Positions 1,676 to 27,190 of a stretch of DNA of 64,000 nt are shown here, one piece after another; positions within the stretch are counted from its first letter, which is position 1; every line of letters begins with the position of its first letter. Below the pieces are notes generated by a model. The model saw only the letters and a list, made by a program, of their open reading frames with translations, did no database searches and was not told the origin of the DNA. Source of the stretch: a virus; the IMG/VR virus record IMGVR_UViG_3300046517_002960, positions 1 to 64,000 of that record; one strand, given 5' to 3'. A program made the translations under genes and the position numbers.

Positions 1676-1738
1676 AGGCGAAACGCGCGGTGTGCGCGTC
1701 TGCGGGACATGGCCTACCCGCACCGACGATGCCAGGCC
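1676..1738 (+). ncRNA. type II hammerhead ribozyme HH1
   Basis: ggc-GAAA-cgcgc/gcgcg-UC; stem I ugcggg/cccgca; core CCGACGA; U-gcc; loop ggccu pairs 3' aggcc; predicted cut after C1700. Confidence 0.88.
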
Positions 1739-1764
1739 ACCGAACCAACTGATCGGGAGAGATC

Positions 1765-2508
1765 ATGTCCGACGTCATCCTGTACGCAAGCGCTGTCAAC
1801 CGCGGGCGCACCGCGTGGAACGCGACCAGCAAGTCCGCATGGACGCTGGCCGAGATCGCGGCCAACGTCGAAACCAAGTACGCGGAGAACACGCTGGTCA
1901 AGCTGGCCGCCGCCATCGCGGGCGACGACCTGTCCGGGGCCACGCTGGCCAATTACCGCACCGTGTGGCTCGCCTACGTCACCGATGAGAGCGACACGCG
2001 GGACGTCAAGAACAGCAACAGCTTCACCGTGCACGAGAAGTTCGCGAAACTGCCCGACCGCGTCAAGCTGCTGGCCAGCAAGCACTGGTCCGCGAGTGAG
2101 GCCCGCGCCTACGTCAAGGCGCTGAACGCGCCGGAGCCGGGCGAGGACGAGGTCGACGGTGAGGGCGCGGGCGAGAGTGCTGGCGCCGGCGCCGAGTCGC
2201 CCAACCGCCGTGACTGGCTGGTTAACAAGATCGCCGAGACTGAGGCCAAGCTGCTCAAGTGGTACACCGAACTGTCCGAGATTGACGCTGCGGACGACAC
2301 GGACAGCACCGACGCGGACAGCGCCGGCACCACGCCGGCTGCGCCCGTGCTTCACATCGTGGGCGGCGGCGTGCCCGAGCACGACGCCAGCGCCCCCCAC
2401 GCGGCCTGCCCCGTGTGCAAGGACCTGGGTATCGCGCCAGCCGTCACCGAGCAGGCCGGCTCCCCGCGCCGCGCCCGTCGCAACCGCCGCCAGCCGGCCG
2501 CCGCGTAA
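1765..2508 (+). CDS. hypothetical protein with acidic linker
   Basis: 247-aa ORF directly after HH1 and its RBS. Confidence 0.75.
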   Translation: MSDVILYASAVNRGRTAWNATSKSAWTLAEIAANVETKYAENTLVKLAAAIAGDDLSGATLANYRTVWLAYVTDESDTRDVKNSNSFTVHEKFAKLPDRVKLLASKHWSASEARAYVKALNAPEPGEDEVDGEGAGESAGAGAESPNRRDWLVNKIAETEAKLLKWYTELSEIDAADDTDSTDADSAGTTPAAPVLHIVGGGVPEHDASAPHAACPVCKDLGIAPAVTEQAGSPRRARRNRRQPAAA

Positions 2509-2520
2509 CCCGATCGCCGA

Positions 2521-2553
2521 GCCGGCCACGGTGCCCCGCGCACCGTGGCCGGC
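2521..2553 (+). terminator. 14-bp perfect GC hairpin (terminator or processing stem)
   Basis: gccggccacggtgc-cccgc-gcaccgtggccggc after stop at 2508; no U tract. Confidence 0.4.
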
Positions 2554-2565
2554 CGGACCAGCAAG

Positions 2566-2650
2566 AGGCGAAACGCGCGGATCCTCCGGCTGACCGGAGA
2601 GTTCCGCGCGTCTGCGGGATATGGCCTACCCGCACCGATGATGCCAGGCC
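2566..2650 (+). ncRNA. type II hammerhead ribozyme HH2
   Basis: stem III cgcgcgg/ccgcgcg with CCGG hairpin insert; GUC cut after C2612; stem I ugcggg/cccgca; core CCGAUGA. Confidence 0.9.
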
Positions 2651-2671
2651 ACCGATATCAGGAGTGATCAC

Positions 2672-2905
2672 ATGCTGTACCCGCTCAGGTACGCCCAGGT
2701 GTTCCGCGCGAACGGCACGCGCGTCGTGGCCGGCGACCACATCACCAGCCGGCTCGGCCGCCGGTACATGTTCCGCTACGCCACGGTGGCCGCGACCGAT
2801 ACCGCGTTTGGCCGCATCGTGGCCGCGCCCATCATGAGCGACGGATTCCCGCTCGGTCACAACGACGAGTTCACCGATTTCGCGTTCGGCCTGACCGTGC
2901 GCTGA
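2672..2905 (+). CDS. hypothetical protein
   Basis: 77 aa, RBS after HH2. Confidence 0.7.
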   Translation: MLYPLRYAQVFRANGTRVVAGDHITSRLGRRYMFRYATVAATDTAFGRIVAAPIMSDGFPLGHNDEFTDFAFGLTVR

Positions 2906-2953
2906 AAAGGGAAAGCCGCCGGCAAGCGAAACGCGCAAGATCAGGAGACAGAC

Positions 2954-3106
2954 ATGATCACGATAACCGCCACCCCGCAGGTCGGCACGCCGGCCGTGCA
3001 GGACGCCGCACGTGCCCGCGCGATCACGGCCGGCGTGCCTACCCGCCAGCCTGACAGGTGGCAGCGTTACGCGGACATGGCGCAGGTCGGCTGGACCACC
3101 CATTAG
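2954..3106 (+). CDS. 50-aa hypothetical protein
   Basis: GATCAGGAG RBS; TAG stop overlaps start of HH3. Confidence 0.6.
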   Translation: MITITATPQVGTPAVQDAARARAITAGVPTRQPDRWQRYADMAQVGWTTH

Positions 3107-3189
3107 GCGAAACGCGTGATTCTCCGGCCAGCCGGACAATCGCGCGTCCGTGCGGCGCTGGCCTGCCGCGCGCTGAATGATGCCAGGCC
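3105..3189 (+). ncRNA. type II hammerhead ribozyme HH3
   Basis: stem III cgcgugauu/aaucgcgcg; cut after C3148; stem I cgugcggc/gccgcgcg; core CUGAAUGA (1-nt insertion). Confidence 0.85.
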
Positions 3190-3212
3190 ACCGAACAGAT
3201 CAGGAGACAGAT

Positions 3213-3506
3213 ATGACCCGCCAGACCAGCCAGCCCGCGCAGCCCGGCAACGAGCTGTACTTCACCGCCGGGACTAAGCGCGCAGCCCGCATCGGGCGCA
3301 CGATGGTCGTCGTGACCGATGGCGCGCGGATCGAGATCACGCTGCCCGTGCGTGACGGCGAGGCGACCGCCATCACGGTCACGCGCGACCCGGACGTCAA
3401 GGTGGCGAACCGCGTGCGCAAGCCGGCGGCCGTCAAGCCGCAGGCCAGCAAGCCCGCTGCCAAGCCGCAGGCCGCGCGCAAGCAGCCCGCCGGCGCCGCC
3501 AAGTAG
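3213..3506 (+). CDS. small protein with Lys/Ala/Pro tail, paralog of 529-1281
   Basis: LYFTAGTKRAARIGRTMVVVTDG vs IYFTRTCKRRQRLGDTLVIRTDD; TAG overlaps HH4. Confidence 0.75.
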   Translation: MTRQTSQPAQPGNELYFTAGTKRAARIGRTMVVVTDGARIEITLPVRDGEATAITVTRDPDVKVANRVRKPAAVKPQASKPAAKPQAARKQPAGAAK

Positions 3507-3591
3507 GCGAAACGCGCGTGACTCTCCGGCCAGCCGGAAGATTCCGCGCGTCCGCGAGGGATGGCCTACTCGCGCTGAATGATGCCAGGCC
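3505..3591 (+). ncRNA. type II hammerhead ribozyme HH4
   Basis: stem III cgcgcg/cgcgcg; cut after C3552; stem I cgcgag/cucgcg; core CUGAAUGA. Confidence 0.85.
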
Positions 3592-3741
3592 GCAGATCAG
3601 GAGTGACGCAGGCATGACGAATTTAGGCTGACCAGCCACCTGTGATCCGCTAGCCGCGCGCATGGCGCAGGTGACGCGGTGATACCGCACGCCGCCGGCG
3701 GCAGAACGGCGGGATTACCGGGACCGCGCACGACGACACAC

Positions 3742-3813
3742 AGGCGAAACGCCGGCGGATGGAGGCGCCGGCGTCTGCGGGGCATGGCCTACCCGCACCG
3801 ATGATGCCAGGCC
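3742..3813 (+). ncRNA. type II hammerhead ribozyme HH5
   Basis: stem III cgccggcg/cgccggcg without CCGG insert; cut after C3775; core CCGAUGA. Confidence 0.88.
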
Positions 3814-3834
3814 GCAGATCAGGGAAGTGATCAC

Positions 3835-4038
3835 ATGACCACCACCGACACGATGCCGCGCCCGACGCCCGCTCAGCTGCGTGAGCGCGCCGAGGCGCGC
3901 CGCGCCCACAGGACCCGTGACGCCGAGGCGCGCTGGATGCGCCAGCGCCGCCAGGCCGCGATCCGCAACGGCATGCCACGCAACACGCCGCTTACGCGCG
4001 CTGAGCTGGCTGCGCGCTGCGCCCGCGCCGGGCACTAG
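3835..4038 (+). CDS. Arg-rich hypothetical protein
   Basis: 67 aa, sole ORF between HH5 and HH6; TAG overlaps HH6. Confidence 0.7.
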   Translation: MTTTDTMPRPTPAQLRERAEARRAHRTRDAEARWMRQRRQAAIRNGMPRNTPLTRAELAARCARAGH

Positions 4039-4124
4039 GCGAAACGCGCGGGATTGTCCGGCCAGCCGGAGGATTCCGTGCGTCTGCGGGGCGCTGGCCT
4101 GCCCCGCACCGATGATGCCAGGCC
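4037..4124 (+). ncRNA. type II hammerhead ribozyme HH6
   Basis: stem III cgcgcgg/ccgugcg; cut after C4084; stem I ugcgggg/ccccgca; core CCGAUGA. Confidence 0.9.
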
Positions 4125-4152
4125 GCTACCCGAGACAGGTCAGGAGACAGCC

Positions 4153-4344
4153 ATGTCCAGCAGGAAAGCCGTACCCGCCGCGCTCGTCCTGCCTGCCCCG
4201 GACCGCGGGCGGGCACTGGCCGAGCTGCGCCAGTCCAACGCGTCCGGCCCGCACGGCCCGCGCTCCAAGCGGATCATCGCGCGGCGCGAGCGGCGCGGCA
4301 CCACGCAGGAGCTGCGCGACCTGCGCGGCCGGCGCCAGGACTGA
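4153..4344 (+). CDS. Arg-rich hypothetical protein
   Basis: 63 aa, sole ORF between HH6 and HH7. Confidence 0.7.
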   Translation: MSSRKAVPAALVLPAPDRGRALAELRQSNASGPHGPRSKRIIARRERRGTTQELRDLRGRRQD

Positions 4345-4345
4345 G

Positions 4346-4430
4346 AGGCGAAACGCGCGGAATCCTCCGGCTGACCGGAGACTCCGCGCGTCCGCAGGAC
4401 ATGGCCTGCCTGCGCTGATGATGCCAGGCC
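4346..4430 (+). ncRNA. type II hammerhead ribozyme HH7 (canonical CUGAUGA core)
   Basis: stem III cgcgcgga/uccgcgcg; cut after C4392; stem I cgcagg/ccugcg; core CUGAUGA. Confidence 0.93.
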
Positions 4431-4451
4431 GCACACGATCAGGAGACCGAC

Positions 4452-5190
4452 ATGAACGGCACGCACCGCCATGACAGGACCGAACCGGGCAAGCACGAGC
4501 AGCCGCACTACGTCACGCGCTGCTGCCGATCCGGGCGGGAACACCGGCCGGTGTTCACCTACCAGCTGCGCGACACCAAGCTGGCGCTGACCAGCCCGCG
4601 CCCGGCGCAGGAGGCACGGGCATGAGCGGCAGGATCACGCCCCCGACCTGGTACCTCGGCGCGCGGCACTACCAGCTGGAAGTCACCGACAGCAACTGGA
4701 TCCCGGTTCACCTGTCCGTCACGACCCGCGCGTACGGCGGATCCTGGCACGACACCGCCAGCATCGCGCGGGACTGCCCGCCAGCCACCGGGATGACAGG
4801 CCGCACGTGCCGCCGCCGGTACCCGTGGCCCGTTGACCGGGACCACCAGCGCCCGAACGGGCCGAGCCCGCACCAGAACCGGGATGACCCGCGCATCCCC
4901 GGCTTCGAGACCCCGCACGACCCGTACCGGGGCTACGTGTGATGCCGTCCATCTACGCACCTAACGACGCGGTCGCCCTGCTCCAGAAGCTGCTCGCCGC
5001 CGCGCGTGACCTGACCGAGCCGAGCGAGCCGAACGCCGAGTACATCCGCGGGCAGGCCAACCTGATCGCGGATGCGTGCGGGCTCGGCAGTGACCGGCAG
5101 GACAGCGACGACGTGTGCGAAGCGCTCACCAGGGCGATCACGGGCGCGCACCTCAACATCGTCGGCGAAACCTACTACCCGGACTTCTAA
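4452..5190 (+). CDS. three translationally coupled hypothetical ORFs (4452-4625, 4622-4942, 4942-5190)
   Basis: start/stop overlaps; RBS after HH7. Confidence 0.65.
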
Positions 5191-5205
5191 GCGAGCCCGG
5201 TTGCC

Positions 5206-5291
5206 AGGCGAAACGGCGCGATTCTCCGGCCAGCCGGAGGATCGTGCCGTCTGCGGGGCGCTGGCCAGTCCCGCACCGATGATGCCAGGCC
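5206..5291 (+). ncRNA. type II hammerhead ribozyme HH8
   Basis: stem III cggcgcgauu/gaucgugccg; cut after C5251; core CCGAUGA. Confidence 0.9.
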
Positions 5292-5312
5292 ACGCACGAT
5301 CAGGAGACCGAC

Positions 5313-5957
5313 ATGCACATCACGTACACGATGGCCGGCGCAGGCGAAGCCGAAGGCGTCACGCTCCACGCGACCAGAACCGGCCGAGACGCGGTTGACG
5401 TCCTGCGCGCCATCGAGAACACCGCCGGCCTGACGCTCACCCGCGTCCAGCTCAGGCCCGACGACAACCCGGACGCATGGGCGCTGAACGAGGTGCTGTG
5501 GGCCGCGCAGGCGGCGGGCTGCCCGGTGCGCCGCCAGTGGGTCCGCACGCGCGACGTGCGCATGGGCGATGAACTGGCGCACAAGCTGTCCGACACGCCG
5601 TGGACGTACACGCCGGTCACCGGCTGGGCCGACCGCCTGCTGGAGCTGTCGCGGTTCGGCGGCGGCCTGGCTGACGTCACGCACCGGACGTTCCGGGTCT
5701 CGGCCGCGCCGTGGTGGGTCCGCGACGACAACATGATGCTGACCTGCGACCTGGACGGCGAAGCACTGATCAGGCTGCGGCCGATCCGCGAGCCGGGCCG
5801 TTTCCGCTGCCCGTGCTGCGGCGATGACGTCATCTCCGCAGACGGCCGCGACTGGGTGTGCGGCGACTGCGCCGGAGCCGGCTGCGAGCAGTCGCGCGAC
5901 GCGTGCGGCGAGCTGAACTGGTGGAACTGCCAGCGCGATGATGAGGACGGTGCATGA
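5313..5957 (+). CDS. hypothetical protein with C-terminal Cys-rich (putative Zn) region
   Basis: CPCC...CGDC...C...C motifs; RBS after HH8. Confidence 0.7.
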   Translation: MHITYTMAGAGEAEGVTLHATRTGRDAVDVLRAIENTAGLTLTRVQLRPDDNPDAWALNEVLWAAQAAGCPVRRQWVRTRDVRMGDELAHKLSDTPWTYTPVTGWADRLLELSRFGGGLADVTHRTFRVSAAPWWVRDDNMMLTCDLDGEALIRLRPIREPGRFRCPCCGDDVISADGRDWVCGDCAGAGCEQSRDACGELNWWNCQRDDEDGA

Positions 5958-6249
5958 TGCGCCTGCTGGACATGATGATCTTCGGCGTGCCCATGCTGCT
6001 GTTCGTCATCATCGCCGGGTACCTGATCTGGCGCGGGCGCCACCGCAGCGGGCGCGGGCTGTGGTGGGAGCTGTGAGCACACGCTGGTTCGTCGCGGCCA
6101 GGCCCGGCACGGCAATGGTGTTCGGCGTCAAGGGCACCAGGGTCGTGTGGACGTCGCCGCGCTACACGGGCCGCAGGGGCGTGCCGCTGTCGTTCCTGCG
6201 AGCGCAGATGCGGCAGCAGGGCCGCGCGTTCTACGAGATCACCCGATAG
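5954..6249 (+). CDS. two small coupled ORFs: membrane peptide 5954-6076 and hypothetical 6073-6249
   Basis: hydrophobic MIFGVPMLLFVIIAGYLIW; second ORF TAG overlaps HH9. Confidence 0.55.
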
Positions 6250-6332
6250 GCGAAACGCGCGGATCCTCCGGCTGGCCGGAGAGTTCCGTGCGTCCGCAGG
6301 ACATGGCCTGCCTGCGCCGATGATGCCAGGCC
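6248..6332 (+). ncRNA. type II hammerhead ribozyme HH9
   Basis: stem III cgcgcgga/uccgugcg; cut after C6294; stem I cgcagg/ccugcg; core CCGAUGA. Confidence 0.9.
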
Positions 6333-6360
6333 GCACACCTAGTGATCAGGGGAAACGATC

Positions 6361-9122
6361 ATGACTCACAGCACGCCCGGTGACCGGGCACGGATCGCGG
6401 CTGCCGAAGCCGCGCAGGCACGGATGCTCGCGGCGCTGCCGGACTTCCCGCAGTTCGGCTTCTACGTCAAGACCGGGCTGGCCGGCTACGGGCCGGACCT
6501 GGACGAGAACGACTACCCGGCGCGCAGCTGGGAAGACGTCGCGCACCAGGTCGCGGAGGAGCTGTCCTTCATGGCGGACTTCAACGCCGAGGGCGCATCC
6601 GCACTGGCCGACCAGGCGCGCGAGGCGCACGACGAGGCGCGCGAGGTTTTCCGGCTGTACGCGTCGGTCGCGGACTACCAGGGGATCGCGGACACGTACC
6701 GCGATGCGGACGATGCGCGCCGGCTCGCGGACGAGCTGGGCACGCTCGCGGCCAACTTCTCCAACCTGGCCAAAGAGCTGAACCCCGCGCCGCTGTACCA
6801 GGGCCGGCCGGAGCTGCGGCACGCGCGCATCTGGGACCTGATCAGCCAGCTCCCGGTGTACGTGTCGGACAACTTGAAGCTGTACGTCTGGGAATGCGAG
6901 GAAGACCCTGGCGATCCCGACGACGCGGAGCCAGGCGGCGGCTACGGGCCGGCCGGGGCCGGTCACACCGACGAGCACGACATCGCCCGCATGGAGGGCG
7001 ACGGCGCCGGCCTGTACTGCGCAGGGGCGTAATCCTCCGGCCGGCCGGACAAATCACGAACGGGAGACAGGCATGAGCGACACCACGCAGGAGCACAACA
7101 GGCAGGCCGTGCGGCTCCGCGCCGCACTGTACCAGGAAGACGACGCCACGCTGGGCGCCATGCTGGCAGGCGGGACGAGCGTCCGGGCCGCGTTCGCGCA
7201 GCGGGTCGGCTGCGGCGACCTGCCGTACTCAGTCATCGAGCACGAGTTCACCGCCCACGCGGCACGTCAGCTCCGGCGCCTGGCGGACGGGGGCACGCTG
7301 TGAAGGCCGGCGTCGTGCGGATGAGCGACAAGACTGACGGACCATCGATCAGGAGACAATCATGATGCCGCCGATACCAGCCGTGGTCCTGCTGCCCACC
7401 GAGACAGCGCACGGCTACTGGCCGGCCACCGTGGTCGCGGCCATCCCGCTCGGCCACGGCAACCTGTACGCCGTGACCGCCATCGAGCCCACCTCGTCAC
7501 CGGACGCACCCGCGTTCTTCGCGGCCGAGGCCGGCCGGAGCATCCACGGGTTCTGGGTCGCGGACACGGATACGGACACCTTCCCCGCCCCTGCCCTGGC
7601 CGATGCACTGGCCGCCATGACCCGCATGGCGGGGCTGCGCTGACCTTCCGGCCGGCCGGAACCTGAGAGGAGACGATCATGAGCGGTGCGCGTACCCGGC
7701 GGATGCGCCGGATTGCGGCAAGCAGCGAGCTAGGCGACCTAGTCGCGAAGCTGCGCGCGAACGGCGCGGCATGCGACAGCGACTGGATGCGCCGGCACGA
7801 ATCACGCGAGGACGGCCAGCTGTGGCTGACCGCGCCGGTATCGCACGCCGACAAAGCGTCCGACACGCTAGCCGACTGCAACTACGAGGTCGCCAGCGAG
7901 CTGCTGCGCGAGGCGTCAGGCTTCGCCCGCTGGACGGTGTACGACGCGGCCTGGCACTTCGCCGGCACGGACATCAAGGTCCCGCGCGGTGGTCACCGCT
8001 ACCTGTCCGGCGGCATCGCCGAGCGGTCGGACGCGTGGCCCGGCGGGCTGATCGAGACGATCCTGGTCCGCGCGGATGACGCTGCCGCGCTGCGCGTGCT
8101 GGCTGGCATCATCGACGCGCTGGCCGGTTACCCGTCGCTGGACGACGCGCGGCTGGCCGAGATGGAGCACGAGCAGGCTCATCCGTCCGATCACGAGTGC
8201 TACGCGGACGCCGGCTGCGGCTGCGCCGTCCGCAACCACGGCCATGCGCCGGCTGACAGCAGCATCGATGCCGGCGACACCACAGACGACGGCGATGCCT
8301 GGTGCCAGCTGTGCGGTGACTGGGTTCCCCTCGGCACGACCGTCACGAACGGCGTGCTGTAGCAGCAGCGATACCGCGACTCCATACTGACCAGCAGGAT
8401 CAGGAGAACGACCATGCCCACAATCACGGCCGAAGTCACCGCACCGACCTTCCGCACCGAGATCACCAGGTCCCGGCTCACGATCGAGCTGCCCGAGCGG
8501 CACATGAGCGTGGAGATCTTTGACGACGGCACCGTCCGCGTCACGCAGGAGTCCCACGACATCCTGGACGGCGCCCCGTCCGCGCCGGATTTCCCGCGCT
8601 ACGCGCCCGGCGGCGAGTACGAGTTCCGGCTGCCCGACCAGGTGGAGGTCAACGCCATCTGCGACACGCCCCTGGGCAGCCCGGACTTCGACAGCGGGGG
8701 CGCGTTCACGATCGCCGCGACCCACCGGCACTGACCAGGCCAGGAACAGGAGCACTGACATGAGCGACACGAACAACCTGCCCGAGATCACCCTGCGCAC
8801 CAGCCCGCAGCTGTCCATCGGCGACGCCGAGGAACTGGCCACGTGGTTCCTGCACAAGATGGGCACCGAACTGCGCGCCAGGCTGATGGCCGAGCGCCCG
8901 GTGCTGTACGCGCGGGTGTACCCCAGCGTCAACCCGGACGCGATCATGCGCAACGTAACAGCCGGCCTCGCCCGCGTGCAGCAGTCACAGGCCGAGGCGT
9001 TCGCGGCTGCCGCGGACAGGCATCTTCTCAGGCAGCGCCCCGGCCACTACCACGACCCGGCGGGCACGTACGACTACTGCACCGACAAGGCGTGCCCGCG
9101 CCTCAAGCCGCCCGCGTCCTGA
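6361..9122 (+). CDS. six hypothetical ORFs (6361-7032, 7073-7303, 7362-7643, 7679-8362, 8414-8734, 8760-9122)
   Basis: each preceded by an AGGAG/GGGAG-type RBS; acidic phage-like proteins; no family recognised. Confidence 0.7.
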
Positions 9123-9124
9123 CC

Positions 9125-9210
9125 GGCGAAACGCGCGGAACCCTCCGGCCGACCGGAAATTCCGCGCGTCTGCGGGGCGCTGGCCTGCCCCGCACCGACG
9201 ATGCCAGGCC
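9125..9210 (+). ncRNA. type II hammerhead ribozyme HH10
   Basis: stem III cgcgcggaa/uuccgcgcg; cut after C9170; stem I ugcgggg/ccccgca; core CCGACGA. Confidence 0.9.
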
Positions 9211-9226
9211 ATCACAGGAGGCAGTC

Positions 9227-11627
9227 ATGAAGTATTTCAGGATCCGCGAGGGCACCGGCATCGAGCAGGTGCTGGCGGATGAGGAGATCACGCCGGGCGA
9301 CGGCGCGTACTCGGCAGCCGAGGTGACGGAGGTGCTGAAGGCCCTGTTCGCGGACCAGCAGGTCCTGCGGCAGCCGAGACGCGGCGGAGAGCGCGTCACC
9401 GCAGGCGTGAGCCGGCCGCAGGACAGCGACGGGTACCGGGTGCTGGTGCAGGCACCGGGGCAGGATTTCTGGCTGGCCTCGAAGCTGGTCTTCGCGGGCA
9501 ACGCGAACGGCGTGGCGTACCGGGACTTCCCGGAGCTGATCGAGGACGCGGTGCGCATCGCGAACGCGATGCTCCGCGCGTGGGACAGGCACGGCGCGCA
9601 GTGAGCGGCGGGCAGGCGGTCCAGACGGGCCAGGTCATCCCCCTGGCCTGCGGTCACGCGCACACGGTGCAGTTCAACGACCCGAAGGACCGCGCCGCGC
9701 TGTTCTTCTGCGGCACATGCGACGGGCTGCGCGCGGCTCTCCCGGCTGACACGGATCCGGGCGAGGACGAAGACGAGTACGAGGACGAAGACGAGGACGG
9801 GGACGCGATGGGTCCGGGCACGGCGCTGCTGATCGTATCGGACGCGATCCCGGCCCGGGCGCGCACCGCGGAAGTGGAAGCCGCGCTGGACGTGCTGCAC
9901 CGCCTGGCGGAAGGCACGCTGAACGAGAGCGAGAGCATCTGACGCCCTAGCAGGCGGAGCGCACGGAACCTCCGGCTGACCGGAGCATTCACCGATACTG
10001 GCCGAACAGGATCAGGAGACAAGAGCCATGCGCTTTTACATGGACTACTGGAACCGGCGCGGGAAGAACTACGGCGCCGGCATGAGCGACGGGTGCACCG
10101 CGCACGTGCGGGGCTGGCGGGCCGGCGTCCGCGTCCAGATCGGCGCGCAGGACGCCGACAAGGACCGGGACGAGGTCGCGGTCTGGATGACCAGCGGCAG
10201 CAACGGCGGACACGAATCCGCGTACCTGGGCACGGTCCGGGAGACGAAGGACGGGCCGCGCTGGGACGCGAGCGCGAACAGCAAGCCGTCGCGGAGTGCC
10301 AGGGCAGCTGCTCTCCGCGCAGAGCTGGCCGGGCTGCACAGCCAGCTAGCACAGGCACGCCGGGAGCTGGACGACGCCCCGGCTGCTGCCCGCGCCGAGC
10401 TGGACGATGTGCGCGCGGCGATCACGGCTGCCCGCGCCGAGCTGGCCGACGTCCCGGCCGCTGCTTACCGCGAGCTGGCCGGTGTCACGGACCGGATAGC
10501 CAAGCGGCGGCAGGCTCTGGCCGGCATGCCGGAGCCGCGCAGCGCAGACGAGAACCATCCGGGCATCGCACGGCACGCGCTCCAGCTCGCCATCAGCGCG
10601 CTGGAGGACGCGGCGGAGCGCGCGTTCGCATCCGGCCAGGGCACGGACTTCGAGTCGGAGACGGCGCTGATAGACCTGCGCGCCGAGCTGGGCCGGCTGG
10701 ACAAGCCGCGCATCACGACCACGCCGGCCGAGGGCTGCGACGCCTGGGACGAGGAGCTATGACCACGCTGAGGGAGCGCATCCGCCAGAACCAGATCACC
10801 GCGAAAGCAACCCAGCGCGAGGGGCCGCCCGCCTACGTCGACTGGGGTGGTGACGAGCGCGGCGGGACCGCATGGTGGGACGTCACGCTGAAACTCGGCC
10901 GGGGAGAGGACAAGCGCCAGCTGACGGTCCCGTTCGGCCTGGGGCCAGGCTTCATGGGCAAGCCGCCCGACGCGCTGCGCGTGCTGTCGTGCCTGTGCGA
11001 GGACGCGGCTGGCTGGGAGAACGCCGATGGCTTCGAGGACTGGGTGCGCGAGTACGGCGCGGACGAGGACGACGGCACCAAGAACATGCAGCTGTACCAG
11101 CGGGTCACCGATGGCGTCAAGCGGCTGCGCCGGTTCCTGGGCGAGACGTACGAGGACTACTTGTGGGATACGGAGGACGTGTGATGAGCGTGGAAAGCCG
11201 TCGCGCGCAACTGCGCAGCCAGATCGCTGAGCCAGTCATCACCGGGGACATGACCCGCGCCGAGCGCGATGCCGAGATGGACCGCTGGCTAGCGGACTGC
11301 CAGGCTCAGAGCAAGCGGCTGGACGAGGAGCACATGCTGCTCGGGATCGGCCGGAGCGCGGCGGTCTGCATGACGCACGAGATCACCGGCCCCTGGCTGA
11401 GCGCCACGGCCAGCCGGTGGTACCTGGCCCTGCCCGAGCGGTACATGACCCCGGCCAGCATGGCCCGGCCGGACTGGGATCACAGCCACTACCCGCACGA
11501 CGAGCACGGGCACATCGGCCGGGTCACCACGCTCCAGCGGCCGAAGACCCAGGCAGACACCGAAGCGGAGAAAATGGTCGCCGCCATCCTGGCAGACATC
11601 GCCCGCGAGGACGCGGAGCCGGGATAG
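9227..11627 (+). CDS. five hypothetical ORFs (9227-9604, 9601-9942, 10028-10762, 10759-11184, 11184-11627)
   Basis: RBSs and start/stop overlaps; 10028 has a coiled-coil repeat; last TAG overlaps HH11. Confidence 0.7.
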
Positions 11628-11694
11628 GCGAAACCGGGCACGGAAAGCCCGGTCTGCGGGAGGGTGGCCGTTCCCGCACCGACGATGCCAGGCC
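11626..11694 (+). ncRNA. type II hammerhead ribozyme HH11
   Basis: divergent stem III ccgggc/gcccgg; cut after C11654; stem I ugcggga/ucccgca; core CCGACGA. Confidence 0.88.
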
Positions 11695-11723
11695 AGGTAC
11701 AGCAGACACGATCAGGAGAACGC

Positions 11724-11837
11724 ATGGACACCAGGACAGCACAGCCCCGCCAGCCCGAGCCGCAGCGCCCGCCGCTGGACGCGTACGGCGACGACGTCGT
11801 GCAGGCGCAGCAGGTCATCGGGAACAACGGCTGGTAA
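11724..11837 (+). CDS. 37-aa peptide, sole ORF between HH11 and HH12
   Basis: GATCAGGAG RBS; MDTRTAQPRQPEPQRPPLDAYGDDVVQAQQVIGNNGW. Confidence 0.6.
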   Translation: MDTRTAQPRQPEPQRPPLDAYGDDVVQAQQVIGNNGW

Positions 11838-11843
11838 GGGACC

Positions 11844-11927
11844 AGGCGAAACGCGCGGATTCTCCGGCTGGCCGGAGGATCCGCGCGTCTGCGGGAGACG
11901 GCCTCCCCGCACCGATGATGCCAGGCC
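11844..11927 (+). ncRNA. type II hammerhead ribozyme HH12
   Basis: stem III cgcgcggauu/gauccgcgcg; cut after C11889; core CCGAUGA. Confidence 0.9.
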
Positions 11928-11949
11928 AGGACCAAGATCAGGAGACAGC

Positions 11950-12141
11950 ATGAGCACTAGCACTTACGGCTATATCGCCCTGTACCAGGGCAGGCGCACC
12001 GAGCTGCCCGCCGAGAGCTTGTACGCGGCCAAGATGCAGGCCATCGAGTTCTTCAAGCCGCCGAAAAGCAAGCAGCATCTCGTCAGCGTGCACCTTGCCG
12101 AGAAAGACGGCGAGACCGTCATGCAGGTGATCACGTCATGA
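11950..12141 (+). CDS. small hypothetical phage protein
   Basis: 63 aa, RBS after HH12. Confidence 0.75.
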   Translation: MSTSTYGYIALYQGRRTELPAESLYAAKMQAIEFFKPPKSKQHLVSVHLAEKDGETVMQVITS

Positions 12142-12260
12142 CCTGGTGGAGCGGGCCGCCCGCATCCAGCACCGGGGTCAGGAGAACACCATGAAAGAGG
12201 TCGCACTCACCCTTCCGGCTGGCCGGAACATCACGAGATAACGATCAGGAGAGAAGCACC

Positions 12261-13610: not shown

Positions 13611-13644
13611 GCGCGCCTTACCCTCGCTGCGATAAGGCGGCGCA

Positions 13645-14193
13645 GTGCGATGGAAAGCTGTGCCTGGCTGGGAGGGTGCCTACGAGGTGTCGGATCACGG
13701 CCAGGTCAGGTCACTGGACCGCATCGTCCCGGCGCTGGACAGGTGGGGAAACCTGACGCTGTACCAGCGCCGGGGCATCATCCTGAAACAGCGGCTTAAC
13801 CGCGATGGCTACCCGGTCGTGGGCCTGTCCTCTGGCGGGCATACGACGACGAAACCAGTTCACGCGCTTGTGCTATCGGCTTTCGCTGGCCTATGCCCGC
13901 ACGGATTGCAAGCGTGCCATGGTCCAGGCGGACGGGCGGATAACCGGTGGCCCGAGAACCTGAGCTGGGGAACGGCTGTGGACAACCATGGGCGAGACAG
14001 ACGGCGCGACCACACGACATCGCGCGGCGAACATGACGGCAAGGCGAAACTAACCTGGGAACAAGTATGCGAAATACGCATGATCACAGGCACATCCCAG
14101 CAGGCCATAGCCGACGCATACAGCGTGACACAGTCAACCGTCAGCAAGATAAAGCTAGGGCGTCTCTGGCAATACCCGCCAGAGGAATGGTAG
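13645..14193 (+). CDS. NUMOD4-HNH homing endonuclease with C-terminal HTH
   Basis: WKAVPGWEGAYEVSDHGQVRS (NUMOD4); VHALVLSAF...CHGPGGRADNRWPENLSWG (HNH); lower GC than flanks. Confidence 0.9.
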   Translation: MRWKAVPGWEGAYEVSDHGQVRSLDRIVPALDRWGNLTLYQRRGIILKQRLNRDGYPVVGLSSGGHTTTKPVHALVLSAFAGLCPHGLQACHGPGGRADNRWPENLSWGTAVDNHGRDRRRDHTTSRGEHDGKAKLTWEQVCEIRMITGTSQQAIADAYSVTQSTVSKIKLGRLWQYPPEEW

Positions 14194-14218
14194 TGCCCGG
14201 CAACGAGGACGTGGACTA

Positions 14219-14305
14219 AGGCGAAACGGCGCGCATTCTCCGGCTGACCGGAGGATCGCGCCGTCTGCGGGGCGCTGGCCTGCCCTGCACCGATGATGCC
14301 AGGCC
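14219..14305 (+). ncRNA. type II hammerhead ribozyme HH13
   Basis: stem III cggcgcg/cgcgccg; cut after C14265; stem I ugcgggg/cccugca; core CCGAUGA. Confidence 0.9.
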
Positions 14306-14323
14306 AGGAAGCAGGAGACAGAC

Positions 14324-17300: not shown

Positions 17301-18349
17301 AGAACCCGGCGGTAGATCCCTACGCGCCGCAGCGGTTCACGCTGGAGATCACCTTCAGTCCCGGCCGGGGCTGGGAGGCCGTCTTCGATACCGCAGACCC
17401 GGCGCTGAGCACGAGCGGCCAGGGCTTCACGGCGGACAACCCGGCGCTGCTGCTGGCGGCCGTCACCCGGGCGCTGCGACCGCTGCACCGCACGCCGTGG
17501 CAGGTGTTCAGCACCGCGCACGGCGCCAGGGCGATCGAGGCGCTGCGCTGGTTCGCCGCGTACATGTACCGGGAGGCGGCCAGCGCGCAGGCCAGTTACG
17601 AGACGGTCAGCGCTGACCCGGAACTGGCCGCGAGGCAGGACGCGTCCATGATGACCACGATGGGCCTGTTCCACTCCGCGAGCCTGTTCGCGGACGCGGC
17701 GGCCCGCGCCGACCGGGCGCGGGAGGCGTACGAGGCGCTGGACGGCGACCGCGAGTACGCGTTCGAGACCTTCGACATGACGCACGGCTACGTGCTGAAG
17801 AACGCGCTCATGGTGCTGGCCGAGCATGTCCGCGAGGGCAAGGACCCGGTGCGGGACCTGGCTGTCGCGGACGCGGCCAGCGCGGCACGGCACGGGTACG
17901 AGCTGCTGGCCGGCGAGCTGGACGGCGAGGAGCCGCCGCTGGACGCCGGCTTCCAGGAGTGAGCATGCACGGCGAGATCATCAGCTTCTACGTCGAAGCA
18001 GACGGCCAGCACGTGGTGATGACGTGCGATAACCCGGATGAGGGCGCGTGCATCACGGTACGCGCCGCCAAGGCAGAGCTAGCCGCGATGGGCGATGCCG
18101 AGCCGGTGTACCTGATGGTGCGCCCGCAGCAGACCGCGACACCCGGCAACTAGCAGAACACGAGATCAGGAGACTCACATGTCCGAGAAGCAGCCCCGGT
18201 TCAGCATGACGGTGACCTACACCGACGACCAGGTGCCCGGCTACCACGCCGGCACCCTGGCGGCCGTCGCGAAGTGGCTCGGCCGGCAGGTGAACGTGGA
18301 CAGCGCGCAGATCGCGCCCGTGGCCGGCGAGAGCCAGCCGGGCAGCTAG
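14324..18349 (+). CDS. run of hypothetical ORFs (14324-14995, 15081-15446, 15462-15719, 15719-16039, 16017-16211, 16239-16868, 16865-17245, 17276-17962, 17965-18153, 18179-18349)
   Basis: RBSs and overlaps; several CxxC proteins; last TAG overlaps HH14. Confidence 0.65.
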
Positions 18350-18433
18350 GCGAAACGGCGCGATTCTCCGGCCAGCCGGAGGATCGCGCCGTCTGCGGGG
18401 CGCTGGCCAGCCCCGCACCGATGATGCCAGGCC
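18348..18433 (+). ncRNA. type II hammerhead ribozyme HH14
   Basis: stem III cggcgcgauu/gaucgcgccg; cut after C18393; stem I ugcgggg/ccccgca; core CCGAUGA. Confidence 0.9.
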
Positions 18434-18445
18434 GGAGATCAGGAG

Positions 18446-20800: not shown

Positions 20801-20812
20801 CCGGAGGCGGGC

Positions 20813-21172
20813 ATGAGCACCACGACGACCGTCTACCTGCTGCACTACGAGAGGCCGATCGGCGACACCGCCCGGCCCCGCATGACGGCGCAGCACTACG
20901 TCGGCTCGTACTGGAACCCGGGCCGGATCGCCAGCCACCGGTCCGGGACGAGCGGCGTGCCCATCACCGCGGCGTTCGCCCGGTGCGGCATCGGCTTCAC
21001 CGTCGCGCGGCTGGCCCGGGGCGGCAAGACGCTGGAGCGGGCGATCAAGAACGCCGGGCAGCACCGCCGGCACTGCCCGGTATGCACGCCGTCGCCGTGG
21101 CGCGGCCGGTGGGGCGAGCTGGTCATCCCAGCCCCTGACGGCGGCTGGCCTGACGGCGCAGACCCCGGCTGA
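20813..21172 (+). CDS. GIY-YIG-like nuclease
   Basis: VYLLHY...HYVG...RIASH...ERAIK...CPVC pattern of small actinophage GIY-YIG proteins. Confidence 0.65.
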   Translation: MSTTTTVYLLHYERPIGDTARPRMTAQHYVGSYWNPGRIASHRSGTSGVPITAAFARCGIGFTVARLARGGKTLERAIKNAGQHRRHCPVCTPSPWRGRWGELVIPAPDGGWPDGADPG

Positions 21173-21226
21173 CCCTCCGGCCGGCCGGACGATCCATGAC
21201 AGAACCAGATCAGGAGACGAGAACTG

Positions 21227-23891
21227 ATGACGACACGCGATGAGGCCAGGCGCACGGCGATGGCCTACGCCTGGGGCTGCGAAGACACAAGCAGCACCAA
21301 GACCGCATACCGGCCCGAGCTGGGCCAGGTCAGCGGCGACTGGGCGTTCGGCGAGGCGTACGCGCAGGGCCAGGACGACTACAACAGCGAGCGCCGGGGC
21401 GACATGACCTCGGTGCAGGCCGCGTACGGGAACTGGCAGGCCAGCGGCGGCAGGTCGGTGTTCAAGCGGGGCAGCCTGACGCTGGGCGACGAGCAGCGCG
21501 CCGAGCTGCGGGCGTCCTGGCCGTACCCGGACGCCCGGCCCGGAGCCTATGAGGGGTACTGGAGACTACAGGACCGGATGCAGGACGAAGCCTGGGCGCT
21601 GCTATGAGCCAGGAGCAGGCACAGGTCAGCAAGGCCAGTGCGGCACAGCGCGCGAGCCGCCGCACCCGCAAGACGCGGGGCGGCGGCGAGCCGGACAGCC
21701 CCTGGTGGCAGGAAGCCGCACCGTGGTACCAGGGCGGGAACCAGGACCGGGGCACGCAGGCAGGAGACGAGGACGGAAGCGATGACTGACCTGCGGATCC
21801 CGCTGACCCCGAAGCAGGCGGACTGGCTGGCTGACCTGGCGGCCAGCGGTTCTGAGAGCTACGCGGAGGCCCTGGACGCCGGGGCGCGGATCGTGGCTGA
21901 TCCCCATGGCGGTGACGTGCTCATCGTCCCGCCCGCTGCCGCGCGCCCGCTGGGGCTGGCGGTGGGCATCCGAGCTGACCTGGCGGACGAGGGCGAGTAC
22001 TCCATCGGGGTGCGCAGTTCCGTGCTGGGCCTGGCCCGCAAGCTGACCGCGAACGGGATCTGCAACGCGGCCCCGCTGATCCCCGATGACAGGAGCTGAT
22101 GACGATGTGGACGATCGAATCCGCTATCCGGCAAGCGGTGCACGGCCAGCCGGGCGACCTGACCGACGACGCCCGGCTGTTCCTGCACGAGCAGGTCCAG
22201 CAGTACGTGAACGGCAAACAGGTCCTGCTCGCGGCGGCCACGGCAGTCATGCTGCTGGACGCGATCGCAGAACTGCGGCTGGAGACGGCAAGCGCGCAGC
22301 AGGAGCCCGCCGCCCAGGCAGAGGGCGTCAAGCACGTCCTGGCCGCCGTAGCCGGAACCGTATTCCGCAGCGGGATAGGCGAAGTGATCATCCTGCTCGA
22401 TACCGCTGACTACGTCATCAGCGTGGACAGCGACGGCGATACGGCCAGCGCATATCTCGTCACCGTGCCGCCCGCTGACATCGCGCAGGCCATGGACGCC
22501 GACCCGCGCGAGATCGGCGGCTGGTCCACCGGCTACGACATCTGACCACCGGAAATGACAGCGCAGGAGACGAAAATGACGACCATGACCGAGACACAGC
22601 CGGCCAGCCCCCAGGCCCGCCAGGATGCCGCGCGGGCAGGCCGGCAGGCCGCCGAGGACGACTTCGCACGGCTGGCCGGGGACCGCGATGCGCTACGGAA
22701 CGCATGGCTGGCCGCGTACACGCACAAGTTCGCGGAGCTGGCGGCGCCGTGCGCGACCGAAGCCCGGCTCATCGCGGCCGGGCGGGTGCCCGTGTTCCAC
22801 GCCGGGCAGCGGATCGAGTTCGCTAGCTGGGATCTGCTGGCGCTGGGCCGGGGCGAGTGGCAGGCGGGCGAGGTCGACAGCTACTACGAGCCGGACTGGC
22901 AGCCGGTCTACCCCGGCCCGGTGCTGCGCCTGGACGTCCGGGTGATCGGGAAGCGCGGCCAGCCGATCGGGAAGCCGATCGAGGTCAGCGAGTACCAGGT
23001 GCGCGTGCCGCAGGACGCGGAGGTGACGGCATGAGCGGCTGGACGCCAGAGCAGCTAGACGCGCTGAACGCCGAAGCTGAGCACAAGCAGCGGATGGAAG
23101 ACGACAGCGCCGACCCCGGCGACCCGGCTGAGCGCGAAGCGTGGGAAGCCGGGAACACGAGCGGGCACTCACCCTCAGACTGGCACGCGAGCCTGCCCTT
23201 CGAGGACGGGGAGACCCCGTACGGCCGGTGGCTGCGTGAGATGCGGCTGATGGAACTGGCGGGCATCGACCCGGCGAACGCCCCGCTGCGCGAAGCCTGG
23301 CAGCAGGCCATGGCGGCGCTGCCGGCGGAAGCGGGCGAAACCGCATACGGCCTGGCGATCCGCGCCCGTCGCGAAGCCTGGGACACCCTGCTGGCCGCGC
23401 ACGAATGCCAGCTGCGTACCTGCGTGTACTGCGGGGTGCCGGGCCTGGCTGAGCATTTCCAGGCCGTCAACGGCCGGAACTGGGCCTGCAAGCAGGGCCG
23501 GCTGTGCGACCTGCGGTACGCCCTGAACGGCAAGCTGTCCCAGGGGCTGCCCGACAACAGCGTGGCGTACTACGTGCAGACCCTGGTCCGCGAGCTGGCC
23601 CAGATGGCGCGCGATGACCGGGCGGCAGCCGGGCACCTGGCCGACCCGTGGGGCAGGCACACCGCCCGCCAGCACCGCATGCTGAGCACCCAGGACCTGG
23701 CCACGTTGCACGTCACCCTGACCGCCGCCGCCGGGTGGCTGCAGGACGCTGGCCGGGCGGACTGGGGCCAGGCGCTCGCCCAGGCCCGCGCATTGCACGG
23801 CTGCAAGCGCTGCGGCGCGATGGGGCCGCAGCCGTGCACCACCAACAGCGGCGCCGAGCGGCACAGCTGGCACCAAGGCCGGGCTTTCTGA
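21227..23891 (+). CDS. hypothetical ORFs (21227-21607, 21604-21789, 21782-22099, 22099-22545, 22555-23034, 23031-23891)
   Basis: coupled starts/stops; no family recognised. Confidence 0.65.
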
Positions 23892-23929
23892 TAGCCGGCT
23901 GACCCGAACACAGATGATCACCACGTAGG

Positions 23930-24016
23930 AGGCGAAACGGGCGCGATTCTCCGGCTGGCCGGATGATCGCGCCCGTCTGCGGGACGGTGGCCTTCCCGCA
24001 CCGATGATGCCAGGCC
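23930..24016 (+). ncRNA. type II hammerhead ribozyme HH15
   Basis: stem III cgggcgcgauu/gaucgcgcccg; cut after C23977; stem I ugcggga/ucccgca; core CCGAUGA. Confidence 0.9.
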
Positions 24017-27186: not shown

Positions 27187-27190
27187 GCAG

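What the first reader, a model, noticed from the sequence alone, without database searches (positions are those of the whole stretch)
1701..23977. Each excised unit carries a complete split hammerhead: possible circular or end-protected mRNAs
Seen: every fragment between two cuts starts with stem I, CYGAUGA and UGCC of ribozyme n and ends with GGC-GAAA, stem III and GUC of ribozyme n+1. Stem II (GGC/GCC) is identical in all copies, so each fragment can refold into a chimeric hammerhead joining its own ends. Unit sizes are 912, 536, 404, 223, 309, 308, 859, 1043, 2876, 2484, 235, 2376, 4128 and 5584 nt. Known: hammerheads leave 5'-OH and 2',3'-cyclic-phosphate ends, which hammerheads or RtcB can ligate; tandem hammerheads make circles in retrozymes; RNase E and RNase J prefer 5'-monophosphate ends. 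Inference: the units could be circular mRNAs, or linear RNAs protected at both ends to survive host RNA decay.
Basis: inference. Interest (0 to 1): 0.78.

Follow-up and report, generated by a model that had tools for sequence, protein, structure and literature searches.

The report
Hammerhead ribozyme array between phage genes
Fifteen self-cutting hammerhead RNAs sit between the early genes of an uncultured 190-kb phage and probably chop one long message into gene-sized pieces with hairpin-capped ends. This layout has been known since 2011, and nothing here indicates that the pieces become circles.

Summary
Fifteen type II hammerheads lie on the + strand at exactly the stated cut sites. They are the only ones in the 190-kb genome, and the unit sizes and the invariant GGC/GCC stem II are as described. 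Each one sits between a stop codon and a ribosome-binding site, 52-69 nt before the next start codon.

The circular-mRNA reading gains no support:
- Unit ends show no complementarity beyond the 3-bp stem II.
- The phage encodes no RtcB or RNA ligase.
- In related arrays stem II covaries within each ribozyme, yet 17 of 40 neighbouring pairs could not form the chimera.
- The uniform stem II here is explained by copies being homogenised within the genome.
- Perreault et al. 2011 looked for circles in such arrays and found none.

The end-protected linear reading is plausible for the 3' end, where stem III carries a hairpin used genome-wide after genes. It is doubtful for the 5'-OH, which RNase J1 attacks after glmS ribozyme cleavage.

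Two new details emerged. Fourteen of the 15 cores carry changes reported to slow cleavage (U4C in 12, A6a in 2). The array also contains decayed ribozyme scars.

This scan has already recorded such arrays on other DNA: 65 notes in at least 58 genomes. This is a new member of a known kind.

The parts
1677..1738 (+). HH01, type II hammerhead; cut before 1701; short stem III; core CCGACGA (U4C)
2567..2650 (+). HH02; cut before 2613; core CCGAUGA (U4C)
3106..3189 (+). HH03; cut before 3149; core CUGAAUGA (A6a insertion); missed by Rfam, 81.6 bits with own model; TAG stop overlaps stem II
3506..3591 (+). HH04; cut before 3553; core CUGAAUGA (A6a insertion); TAG stop overlaps stem II
3743..3813 (+). 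HH05; cut before 3776; short stem III; U4C
4038..4124 (+). HH06; cut before 4085; U4C; TAG stop overlaps stem II
4347..4430 (+). HH07; cut before 4393; the only copy with the fully canonical core CUGAUGA
5207..5291 (+). HH08; cut before 5252; U4C; 17-bp stem III, -32.4 kcal/mol
6249..6332 (+). HH09; cut before 6295; U4C; TAG stop overlaps stem II
9125..9210 (+). HH10; cut before 9171; core CCGACGA (U4C)
11627..11694 (+). HH11; cut before 11655; short stem III; above the Rfam gathering score (43.6 bits)
11845..11927 (+). HH12; cut before 11890; U4C; stem III -34.3 kcal/mol
14220..14305 (+). HH13; cut before 14266; U4C
18349..18433 (+). HH14; cut before 18394; U4C; TAG stop overlaps stem II
23931..24016 (+). 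HH15; cut before 23978; last copy; above the Rfam gathering score (40.9 bits)
9952..9990 (+). Decayed hammerhead 5' half (AGGCGGAGC in place of AGGCGAAAC) that keeps the apical hairpin; no stem I or core strand follows; lies between two genes inside unit 10
1482..1513 (+). Remnant resembling a hammerhead 3' end (GCACCGAUGCC) followed by the usual GATCAGGAGAC ribosome-binding site and an ATG, upstream of HH01
7036..7049 (+). Stand-alone copy of the hairpin UCCGGC-NNN-CCGGA, which forms the tip of stem III in 12 ribozymes; here it follows a stop codon with no ribozyme. Other stand-alone copies are at 1647, 7647, 12214, 15980, 21176, 26197, 40547 and 54515.
   Evidence: 22 loci in the window, 0.02 matches expected by chance

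Best explanation
The 15 elements are genuine cis-acting type II hammerhead ribozymes built into a standard intergenic module: stop codon, GGC-GAAA, long stem III hairpin, GUC cut site, stem I with a loop/tail pseudoknot, core strand, GCC, a 10-25 nt spacer, a GATCAGGAGAC ribosome-binding site and the start codon. They occupy the promoter-proximal 24 kb of a 52-kb block of rightward genes in an uncultured actinophage-like genome. As the long transcript is made, each ribozyme folds locally and cuts itself (inferred, not shown). This turns the polycistronic RNA into 14 linear units of 223-5584 nt. Every unit then begins with an identical structured leader, with the cut 52-69 nt before its first AUG, so translation starts are insulated from upstream context. 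Every unit ends 3 nt after a strong hairpin with a 2',3'-cyclic phosphate. The same hairpin follows many other genes in this genome, and it probably blocks 3' exonucleases and tailing. Because 14 of 15 cores carry U4C or A6a, cutting is probably slow or partial. That would give a mixture of long and short messages rather than complete dicing. The products stay linear.
For: Identity. Rfam and the covariance model give consistent hits, and in 10 of 15 copies the minimum-free-energy fold is the three-way junction, stem II included. On 93 distinct relatives 96.3% of cells are paired, 23 of 24 pairs change on both sides, and 0 of 500 shuffles reach these values. The loop I/tail pseudoknot covaries between arrays (UGGCC/GGCCA, UGACC/GGUCA, UUGCCC/GGGCAA); own tails give a mean run of 4.61 against 3.78 +/- 0.10 for permuted tails. 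Core positions other than 4 and 7 are invariant in all 15 copies.

Placement. The cut lies 52-69 nt before the start codon in 15 of 15 copies. The upstream stop codon overlaps stem II in 6 copies and lies within 2 nt of it in at least 2 more.

Conservation. Three to four genes with 48-59% identical homologues in a 210-kb phage also sit directly behind a hammerhead there.

3' hairpin. Stem III is worth -23 to -34 kcal/mol in 12 copies, far more than catalysis needs. Its tip is a genome-wide post-gene hairpin.

Precedent. Clustered prophage hammerheads cleave in vitro and in vivo and were proposed to process long transcripts (PMC3088659). Type II hammerheads cleave in Desulfovibrio vulgaris cells (PMC8782182).
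Against: No RNA data exist for this uncultured phage, so neither transcription as one unit nor cleavage is shown. U4C 'considerably decreases activity in vitro' and A6a gives 'low activity' (PMC3088659), so only HH07 is canonical and many junctions may cut poorly. Promoter and terminator scans were uninformative in this 70% G+C DNA. The stabilising role of the ends is inference. In Bacillus the 5'-OH left by the glmS ribozyme invites RNase J1, and actinobacteria have RNase J (background knowledge).
Confidence: 0.62

Rival explanations
1. Circular mRNAs. After double cleavage, the 3' half of ribozyme n and the 5' half of ribozyme n+1 on one unit pair through GGC/GCC. The ends are then joined by the hammerhead's reverse reaction or by a host RtcB ligase.
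For: The topology is correct and stem II is compatible in 14 of 14 units. The pseudoknot lies wholly in the 3' half, so a chimera would keep it. The nearest-neighbour partition function gives the chimeric stem II a probability of 2.5e-7 to 0.57 (median about 0.07) in the nine units of 1.1 kb or less. That is no lower than the same stem within a ribozyme in precursor context, at 0-0.046. RtcB is common in bacteria, with hits in 10 of 14 control genomes.
Against: Only 3 bp hold the halves together, with no extension possible and no complementarity of the ends. The energy model charges nothing for loop size and ignores tertiary structure, so one search is permissive rather than supportive. The phage has no RtcB or RNA ligase. 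In related arrays 17 of 40 neighbouring pairs cannot form the chimera, while stem II covaries within each ribozyme. Uniformity here is explained by concerted evolution. Perreault et al. 2011 searched for circular or spliced products from such arrays and found none. Units of 2.4-5.6 kb are far larger than known ribozyme-made circles (a few hundred nt in the retrozyme review read; otherwise background knowledge).
Confidence: 0.07
2. Conditional or attenuated ribozymes. The U4C and A6a cores are selected to be slow, so cutting depends on a factor (Mg2+, a chaperone, or clearing of the ribosome from the stop codon that overlaps stem II). This would time or grade early gene expression rather than dice the transcript constitutively.
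For: U4C occurs in 12 of 15 copies here and in 3 copies of the 210-kb relative, but in 0 of the 73 parsed copies from other loci, although the search pattern allowed C or U at that position. The other core positions are invariant, so this is not random decay. The stop codon overlaps the 5' strand of stem II in 6 copies, so a terminating ribosome would occupy it (the mechanism is inference). Perreault et al. suggested that slower phage variants might be regulated.
Against: U4C could be a nearly neutral variant spread by homogenisation among copies and offset by the pseudoknot. A U4C viroid hammerhead still works in vivo. No candidate cofactor was identified.
Confidence: 0.18
3. Mainly DNA-level or non-catalytic elements. 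In this reading the repeats are module boundaries for recombinational shuffling of gene cassettes, or platforms for the conserved hairpin (a terminator without a U-tract, or a protein-binding site), and cleavage is incidental or lost.
For: Gene-plus-ribozyme units occur in a different order in the 210-kb relative. Ribozymes resemble their paralogues in the same genome (mean 0.51-0.75) more than the ribozyme in front of the homologous gene (0.46-0.47). The stem III tip is a hairpin that also stands alone at about 10 junctions. Scars of lost ribozymes exist. Fourteen of 15 cores deviate from the consensus.
Against: Eleven core nucleotides, the GUC site, three helices with compensatory changes and a covarying pseudoknot are all kept. 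That is not expected without selection on the folded, catalytic RNA. All copies are on the coding strand in one orientation. This reading could also be true alongside RNA processing.
Confidence: 0.12

Closest known systems
Clustered hammerhead ribozymes flanking genes in prophages (Perreault et al. 2011, PMC3088659); type II hammerhead, Rfam RF02276
   Same: Type II topology, loop I/3'-tail pseudoknot, short stem II, one inserted nucleotide after A9, and positions between small phage genes on the coding strand. Proposed to process long transcripts. The circular or spliced idea was already raised there and not detected.
   Different: Fifteen copies in one 22-kb run of a 190-kb genome. Fourteen of 15 cores carry U4C or A6a. 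Stem III is extended to about 17 bp and carries a genome-wide hairpin. The cut-to-AUG distance is very regular.
Retrozymes and viroid-like RNAs (tandem hammerheads that release circular RNAs; PMC4918200, PMC7761336)
   Same: Two successive hammerheads leave a unit whose ends carry complementary ribozyme halves with 5'-OH and 2',3'-cyclic phosphate.
   Different: In those elements the units are repeats of a few hundred nt, with type I or type III hammerheads, and circles have been detected (PMC7761336). That such RNAs are non-coding and highly self-paired, and that a host tRNA ligase joins their ends, comes partly from the viroid review and partly from background knowledge. Here the units are unrelated protein-coding RNAs of 0.2-5.6 kb, only a 3-bp stem II joins the ends, and there is no complementarity between the ends.
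RNase III processing of phage T7 early polycistronic mRNA
   Same: Intergenic cuts turn one early transcript into gene-sized mRNAs that end in a stabilising hairpin.
   Different: T7 relies on a host protein enzyme and leaves 5'-phosphate and 3'-OH ends. Here the RNA would cut itself, independently of the host, and leave 5'-OH and cyclic phosphate.
RiboJ-type synthetic ribozyme insulators
   Same: A hammerhead just upstream of a ribosome-binding site removes variable upstream RNA and leaves a fixed structured leader.
   Different: RiboJ is engineered, is derived from a satellite-RNA hammerhead and is used singly. This array is natural, repeated 15 times, and also defines the 3' end of the upstream gene.
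glmS ribozyme and RNase J1 (Collins et al. 2007, as summarised in PMC3328962)
   Same: Self-cleavage in an mRNA leader leaves a 5'-OH on the coding fragment.
   Different: Here the 5'-terminal nucleotide is paired at the base of stem I, which may or may not change the outcome.

Membership tests
Type II hammerhead ribozyme (RF02276) | Conserved core: C3 U4 G5 A6 N7 G8 A9 ... G12 A13 A14, A15.1-U16.1, H17 at the cut site | tested here: inconclusive
   C3, G5, A6, G8, A9, G12-A14, A15.1-U16.1 and C17 are invariant in all 15 copies. Position 4 is C in 12 copies, and 2 copies have an extra A after A6. Both are natural variants already reported as active but slow.
Type II hammerhead ribozyme (RF02276) | Three helices around the core, supported by compensatory changes; stems I and III closed by loops and stem II open | tested here: met
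   96.3% of cells are paired, 23 of 24 pairs change on both sides, and 0 of 500 shuffles reach these values. The minimum-free-energy fold gives the junction in 10 of 15 copies.
Type II hammerhead ribozyme (RF02276) | Pseudoknot between loop I and the nucleotides 3' of stem II | tested here: met
   GGCC/GGCC is present in all 15 copies. It covaries between arrays. Own tails give a mean run of 4.61 against 3.78 +/- 0.10 for permuted tails, with a maximum of 4.15 in 2000 permutations.
Type II hammerhead ribozyme (RF02276) | Score at or above the Rfam gathering threshold | tested here: inconclusive
   Two of 15 copies exceed 37 bits, 12 score 23.7-34.9 bits and one is not reported. The shortfall comes from the long stem III insert and the U4C change.
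Type II hammerhead ribozyme (RF02276) | Site-specific self-cleavage | not testable with these tools
   No RNA data are available.
Ribozyme-made circular RNAs (retrozyme or viroid-like) | Unit ends held together by a stable helix or a rod-like fold that rebuilds the ribozyme | tested here: not met
   Stem II is 3 bp and cannot be extended (0 of 14 units). End-to-end duplex energy equals that of mismatched ends, p = 0.49.
Ribozyme-made circular RNAs (retrozyme or viroid-like) | Compatibility of neighbouring ribozyme halves conserved in related arrays | tested here: not met
   14 of 14 units are compatible here, but only 23 of 40 neighbouring pairs are in other phage arrays, while stem II covaries within each ribozyme.
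Ribozyme-made circular RNAs (retrozyme or viroid-like) | A ligase for 5'-OH and 2',3'-cyclic phosphate ends is available | tested here: inconclusive
   The phage genome contains none. The host is unknown and may encode RtcB.
Ribozyme-made circular RNAs (retrozyme or viroid-like) | Circular molecules detected | not testable with these tools
   Only the negative statement of Perreault et al. 2011 for other arrays is available.

The most novel reading that the evidence does not exclude
The ribozyme-released units are covalently closed circular mRNAs, closed by the chimeric hammerhead or by host RtcB. That would give a phage a nuclease-resistant early transcriptome and would be the first natural protein-coding circular mRNAs made by ribozymes in bacteria.
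Probability: 0.07. Interest if true: 0.85.

Novelty: new member of a known kind. Interest (0 to 1): 0.3.

Why it matters
The biological purpose of hammerhead arrays in phages has been open since 2011 (reviewed in PMC6765202). This locus is a large and very regular example, with one module per junction, a fixed leader length and the stop codon inside stem II. It adds three testable points. First, almost every core carries a change reported to slow cleavage. Second, stem III doubles as the phage's general post-gene hairpin. Third, comparison of arrays argues that selection keeps each ribozyme's own stem II paired, not the pairing between neighbouring ribozymes that circularisation would need. 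If the units do turn out to be end-protected or circular, this would be a host-independent way for a phage to set mRNA stability. It would also supply natural insulator parts for high-G+C hosts.

Tried and rejected
- Sigma-70 promoter and intrinsic-terminator scans over 1-40 kb found nothing above chance.
- Pfam and PHROGs on 27 different proteins gave almost no function: one NUMOD4/HNH endonuclease, one helicase/primase-like protein near 40 kb, and one PHROG family of unknown function.
- The search for cultured relatives that could serve as a model gave little. blastn of four ribozymes against 50,697 phage records hit only a 45-nt stretch in Roseobacter phage CRP-212. Gordonia phage OneUp and Microbacterium phage Kelcole carry a homologue of the 449-aa protein but have no hammerheads nearby.
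- My first argument, that a 3-bp stem II cannot close a long unit, is not backed by the nearest-neighbour model, which predicts the chimeric stem as readily as the stem within one ribozyme. I therefore rest the case against circles on comparative and published evidence, not on energetics.
- I considered a correlation between U4C and the identity of the first stem I pair and rejected it, because HH09 and the copies in the 210-kb phage break it.


Full report
**1. What is there**

The window is the first 64 kb of a 190,216-bp virus record with 70% G+C. Rfam's type II hammerhead model (RF02276) hits 14 places on the + strand between 1676 and 24019. Two hits are above the gathering score and the rest have E-values of 0.0025-2.2.

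Each has the same order of parts: GGC, GAAA, stem III, GUC, cut, stem I, core strand, one U, GCC, AGGCC.

A covariance model built from the 15 copies finds exactly these 15 in the whole genome, at 61-106 bits. The next hits, at 35 bits or less, are minus-strand hits over the ribozymes themselves (palindromic stem III).

One correction concerns the core strand. It is CCGAUGA in 9 copies, CCGACGA in 3, CUGAUGA in 1 and CUGAAUGA in 2.

**2. They are real hammerheads**

- The conserved core positions, apart from positions 4 and 7, are invariant in all 15 copies.
- In 10 of 15 copies the minimum-free-energy fold is the three-way junction, including the 3-bp stem II.
- On 93 distinct relatives from this and about 40 other viral loci, 96.3% of cells are paired, 23 of 24 pairs show changes on both sides, and none of 500 shuffles or six slid registers comes close. 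That alignment was fitted to the model, which favours the structure.
- The loop I/3'-tail pseudoknot typical of type II hammerheads is GGCC/GGCC in all copies here. It covaries between arrays: UGACC/GGUCA in a 210-kb phage, and UUGCCC/GGGCAA and CCCCC/GGGGG in an 86-kb phage.
- Each loop matches its own tail better than permuted tails: mean run 4.61 against 3.78 +/- 0.10, with a maximum of 4.15 in 2000 permutations.

**3. Anatomy of the module**

Every ribozyme sits in a gap between + strand genes. The cut lies 52-69 nt before the next start codon in all 15 cases, with a GATCAGGAGAC-type ribosome-binding site in between. The upstream gene's stop codon overlaps the first G of stem II (TAG|GC) in six copies and lies within 2 nt of it in at least two more.

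The genes are almost all without known families. The exceptions in the array are one NUMOD4/HNH endonuclease at 13645-14193 and one PHROG family of unknown function. The only cultured-phage homologues found are in Gordonia and Microbacterium phages.

The + strand gene block runs from about 0.5 to 52.6 kb, and the ribozymes occupy only its first 24 kb.

**4.

*(a) Slow-looking cores.* Twelve copies have C instead of U at core position 4. Two of the remaining three have an extra A after A6. Only HH07 (cut at 4393) is canonical. Perreault et al. 2011 state that U4C 'considerably decreases activity in vitro', although a viroid with it stays infectious, and that the A6a insertion gives low activity.

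U4C is specific to this lineage. It occurs in 12 of 15 copies here and in 3 copies of the 210-kb relative, but in none of the 73 parsed copies from other loci, even though my search pattern allowed either base.

*(b) A shared hairpin in stem III.* Stem III is far longer than catalysis needs, at -23 to -34 kcal/mol in 12 copies. Its tip, UCCGGC-YRR-CCGGA, is a genome-wide hairpin. It occurs at 22 loci in the window, where 0.02 matches are expected by chance, and its 12-nt core CCGGC-YRR-CCGG occurs 37 times on the + strand of the genome.

About ten copies stand alone right after stop codons, several of them inside the multi-gene units (7036, 7647, 12214, 15980, 21176). One, at 9952-9990, is a decayed ribozyme 5' half. 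A remnant of a 3' half precedes the first small gene at about 1487.

Junctions therefore come in two kinds, hairpin plus ribozyme or hairpin alone. The long units probably arose by loss of ribozymes.

**5. How common is this**

Perreault et al. 2011 described multiple hammerheads flanking single genes or short gene blocks in prophages. They showed cleavage of three tandem arrangements in vitro and of one in vivo, and proposed processing of long transcripts. [quoted passage not shown] A 2019 review still lists the purpose as unresolved. Type II hammerheads have been shown to cut in Desulfovibrio vulgaris cells.

In IMG/VR I found several other arrays:
- 11-13 copies in a 210-kb phage (IMGVR_UViG_3300037258_000590);
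- 5 copies in an 86-kb phage;
- 7-10 copies at one end of each of four phages of about 50 kb.

Other agents of this scan have logged 65 such notes in at least 58 genomes, with up to about 30 copies (these notes are unchecked). The kind is therefore known, and this is a large, tidy member of it.

**6. Testing the circular-mRNA idea**

The topology claim is right. A unit carries the 3' half of ribozyme n at its 5' end and the 5' half of ribozyme n+1 at its 3' end, and GGC/GCC fits in 14 of 14 units. The tests gave the following results.

- *(i) End pairing.* Stem II cannot be lengthened by even one pair, either within a ribozyme or in the chimera. The 40-nt flanks of a unit's own ends pair no better than mismatched ends: -15.96 against -15.99 kcal/mol, Mann-Whitney p = 0.49. 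No adaptation holds the ends together.
- *(ii) Energetics.* The nearest-neighbour partition function nevertheless gives the chimeric stem II a probability of 2.5e-7 to 0.57 (median about 0.07) in the nine units of 1.1 kb or less. That is no worse than the same stem within a ribozyme in a precursor with 100-nt flanks, at 0-0.046. The model has no penalty for loop size and no tertiary terms, so it permits the chimera but does not argue for it. I withdrew my energetic objection.
- *(iii) Ligases.* The phage has no RtcB (PF01139) and no RNA ligase (PF09414). The host is unknown.
- *(iv) Comparison with other arrays.* In the other arrays stem II varies (GGC/GCC, GCC/GGC, GUC/GAC, UGC/GCA) and always covaries within the ribozyme. 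Only 23 of 40 neighbouring pairs are compatible. One caveat is that undetected copies could lie between some 'neighbours', but any switch of stem II type within an array must create an incompatible unit.
- *(v) Concerted evolution.* Uniformity here has a simpler cause. Copies resemble paralogues in the same genome (mean identity 0.71) more than copies in the 210-kb phage (0.51). The three ribozymes that precede homologous genes in the two phages are no closer to each other (0.46-0.47) than to random copies.
- *(vi) Published evidence.* The only published experimental statement on circles from such arrays is negative.

I put functional circles at about 7%.

**7. Testing the end-protection idea**

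After cleavage the upstream unit ends 3 nt past a 15-20 bp G+C-rich hairpin with a cyclic phosphate. By general knowledge of PNPase and RNase II, which need a single-stranded 3' tail, and of tailing enzymes, which need a 3'-OH, this should be a poor substrate. This is inference. The fact that the same hairpin follows many genes that have no ribozyme supports a 3'-end role.

The downstream unit begins with a 5'-OH nucleotide that is paired at the base of stem I and locked by the pseudoknot. There the 5'-OH product is the substrate of RNase J1 and is rapidly degraded (Collins et al. 2007, as summarised in PMC3328962). If the host is an actinobacterium it has RNase J (background knowledge). Any 5' protection would therefore have to come from the terminal hairpin, not from the hydroxyl. 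The idea is plausible but unproven.

**8. Best reading**

I read this as self-processing of a long early transcript into linear units with standardised ends. It resembles T7's RNase III sites in effect and synthetic ribozyme insulators in design. Cleavage is probably slow or graded because of the U4C and A6a cores. My confidence is about 0.6.

Three rivals remain: conditional cleavage (0.18, a refinement of the main reading), mainly DNA-level or non-catalytic roles (0.12), and circles (0.07).

What is shown is the ribozyme identity, the placement, the conservation and the comparative pattern. Transcription as one unit, cleavage itself and every effect on stability are inferred.

**9. Limits**

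The host is unidentified. My search patterns fixed part of stem II in the seed hits, so family-wide counts of GGC/GCC are biased upward. The within-array variation reported comes mostly from copies found by the model rather than by the pattern.

Noticed in passing
window 1647, 7036, 7647, 9971, 12214, 15980, 21176, 26197, 40547, 54515, plus the 12 copies inside ribozymes: A hairpin UCCGGC-YRR-CCGGA with conserved flanks (GATTCT...AGAATC) occurs at 22 loci in the window, where 0.02 matches are expected by chance. Its 12-nt core CCGGC-YRR-CCGG occurs 37 times on the + strand of the genome, usually right after stop codons and on either gene orientation. It could be a terminator without a U-tract, an mRNA 3' stabiliser or a protein-binding site.
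   Followed up: partly
window, core position 4 of 12 ribozymes (for example 1724, 2636, 3799): U4C is nearly fixed in this array and present in 3 copies of a 210-kb relative, but absent from the 73 parsed type II hammerheads of other viral loci. Only HH07 has a canonical core.
   Followed up: partly
window 9952-9990 and 1482-1513: Two scars of lost ribozymes. The first is a 5' half with GAAAC mutated to GGAGC that keeps the hairpin. The second is a 3'-end remnant (GCACCGAUGCC) in front of the first small gene's ribosome-binding site.
   Followed up: partly
window 3553-3775: This 223-nt unit between HH04 and HH05 has a good ribosome-binding site but only a 5-codon ORF. All three frames are broken by stop codons. 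It is either a decayed gene or a small excised RNA.
   Followed up: partly
window 11724-11837: The 37-codon ORF in the 235-nt unit has a 48% identical counterpart directly behind a hammerhead in the 210-kb phage (L041:1328-1480), so it is probably a real micro-protein.
   Followed up: partly
window 529-1281: The gene upstream of the array encodes a protein full of 12-nt tandem repeats (GCCGAGCCCAAG and variants, which read as PKAE/PKAA repeats).
   Followed up: no
window 27170-27310 and 46935-47085: A second structured intergenic motif occurs in two copies: GGCUGAGC, a long hairpin with GCCAUCC in its loop, then GAACCGUAC...UAACCGC...GGUUCC, followed by a ribosome-binding site.
   Followed up: no
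L041 (IMGVR_UViG_3300037258_000590, 143.5-163 kb), L042, L020, L026, L030, L036: Other viral contigs carry arrays of 5-13 type II hammerheads at one genome end. In the phages of about 50 kb, stem II differs between copies of one array, and the inserted U after A9 is often absent.
   Followed up: partly
window 13645-14193: A NUMOD4/HNH homing-endonuclease-like gene sits at the end of unit 12, just before HH13.
   Followed up: no
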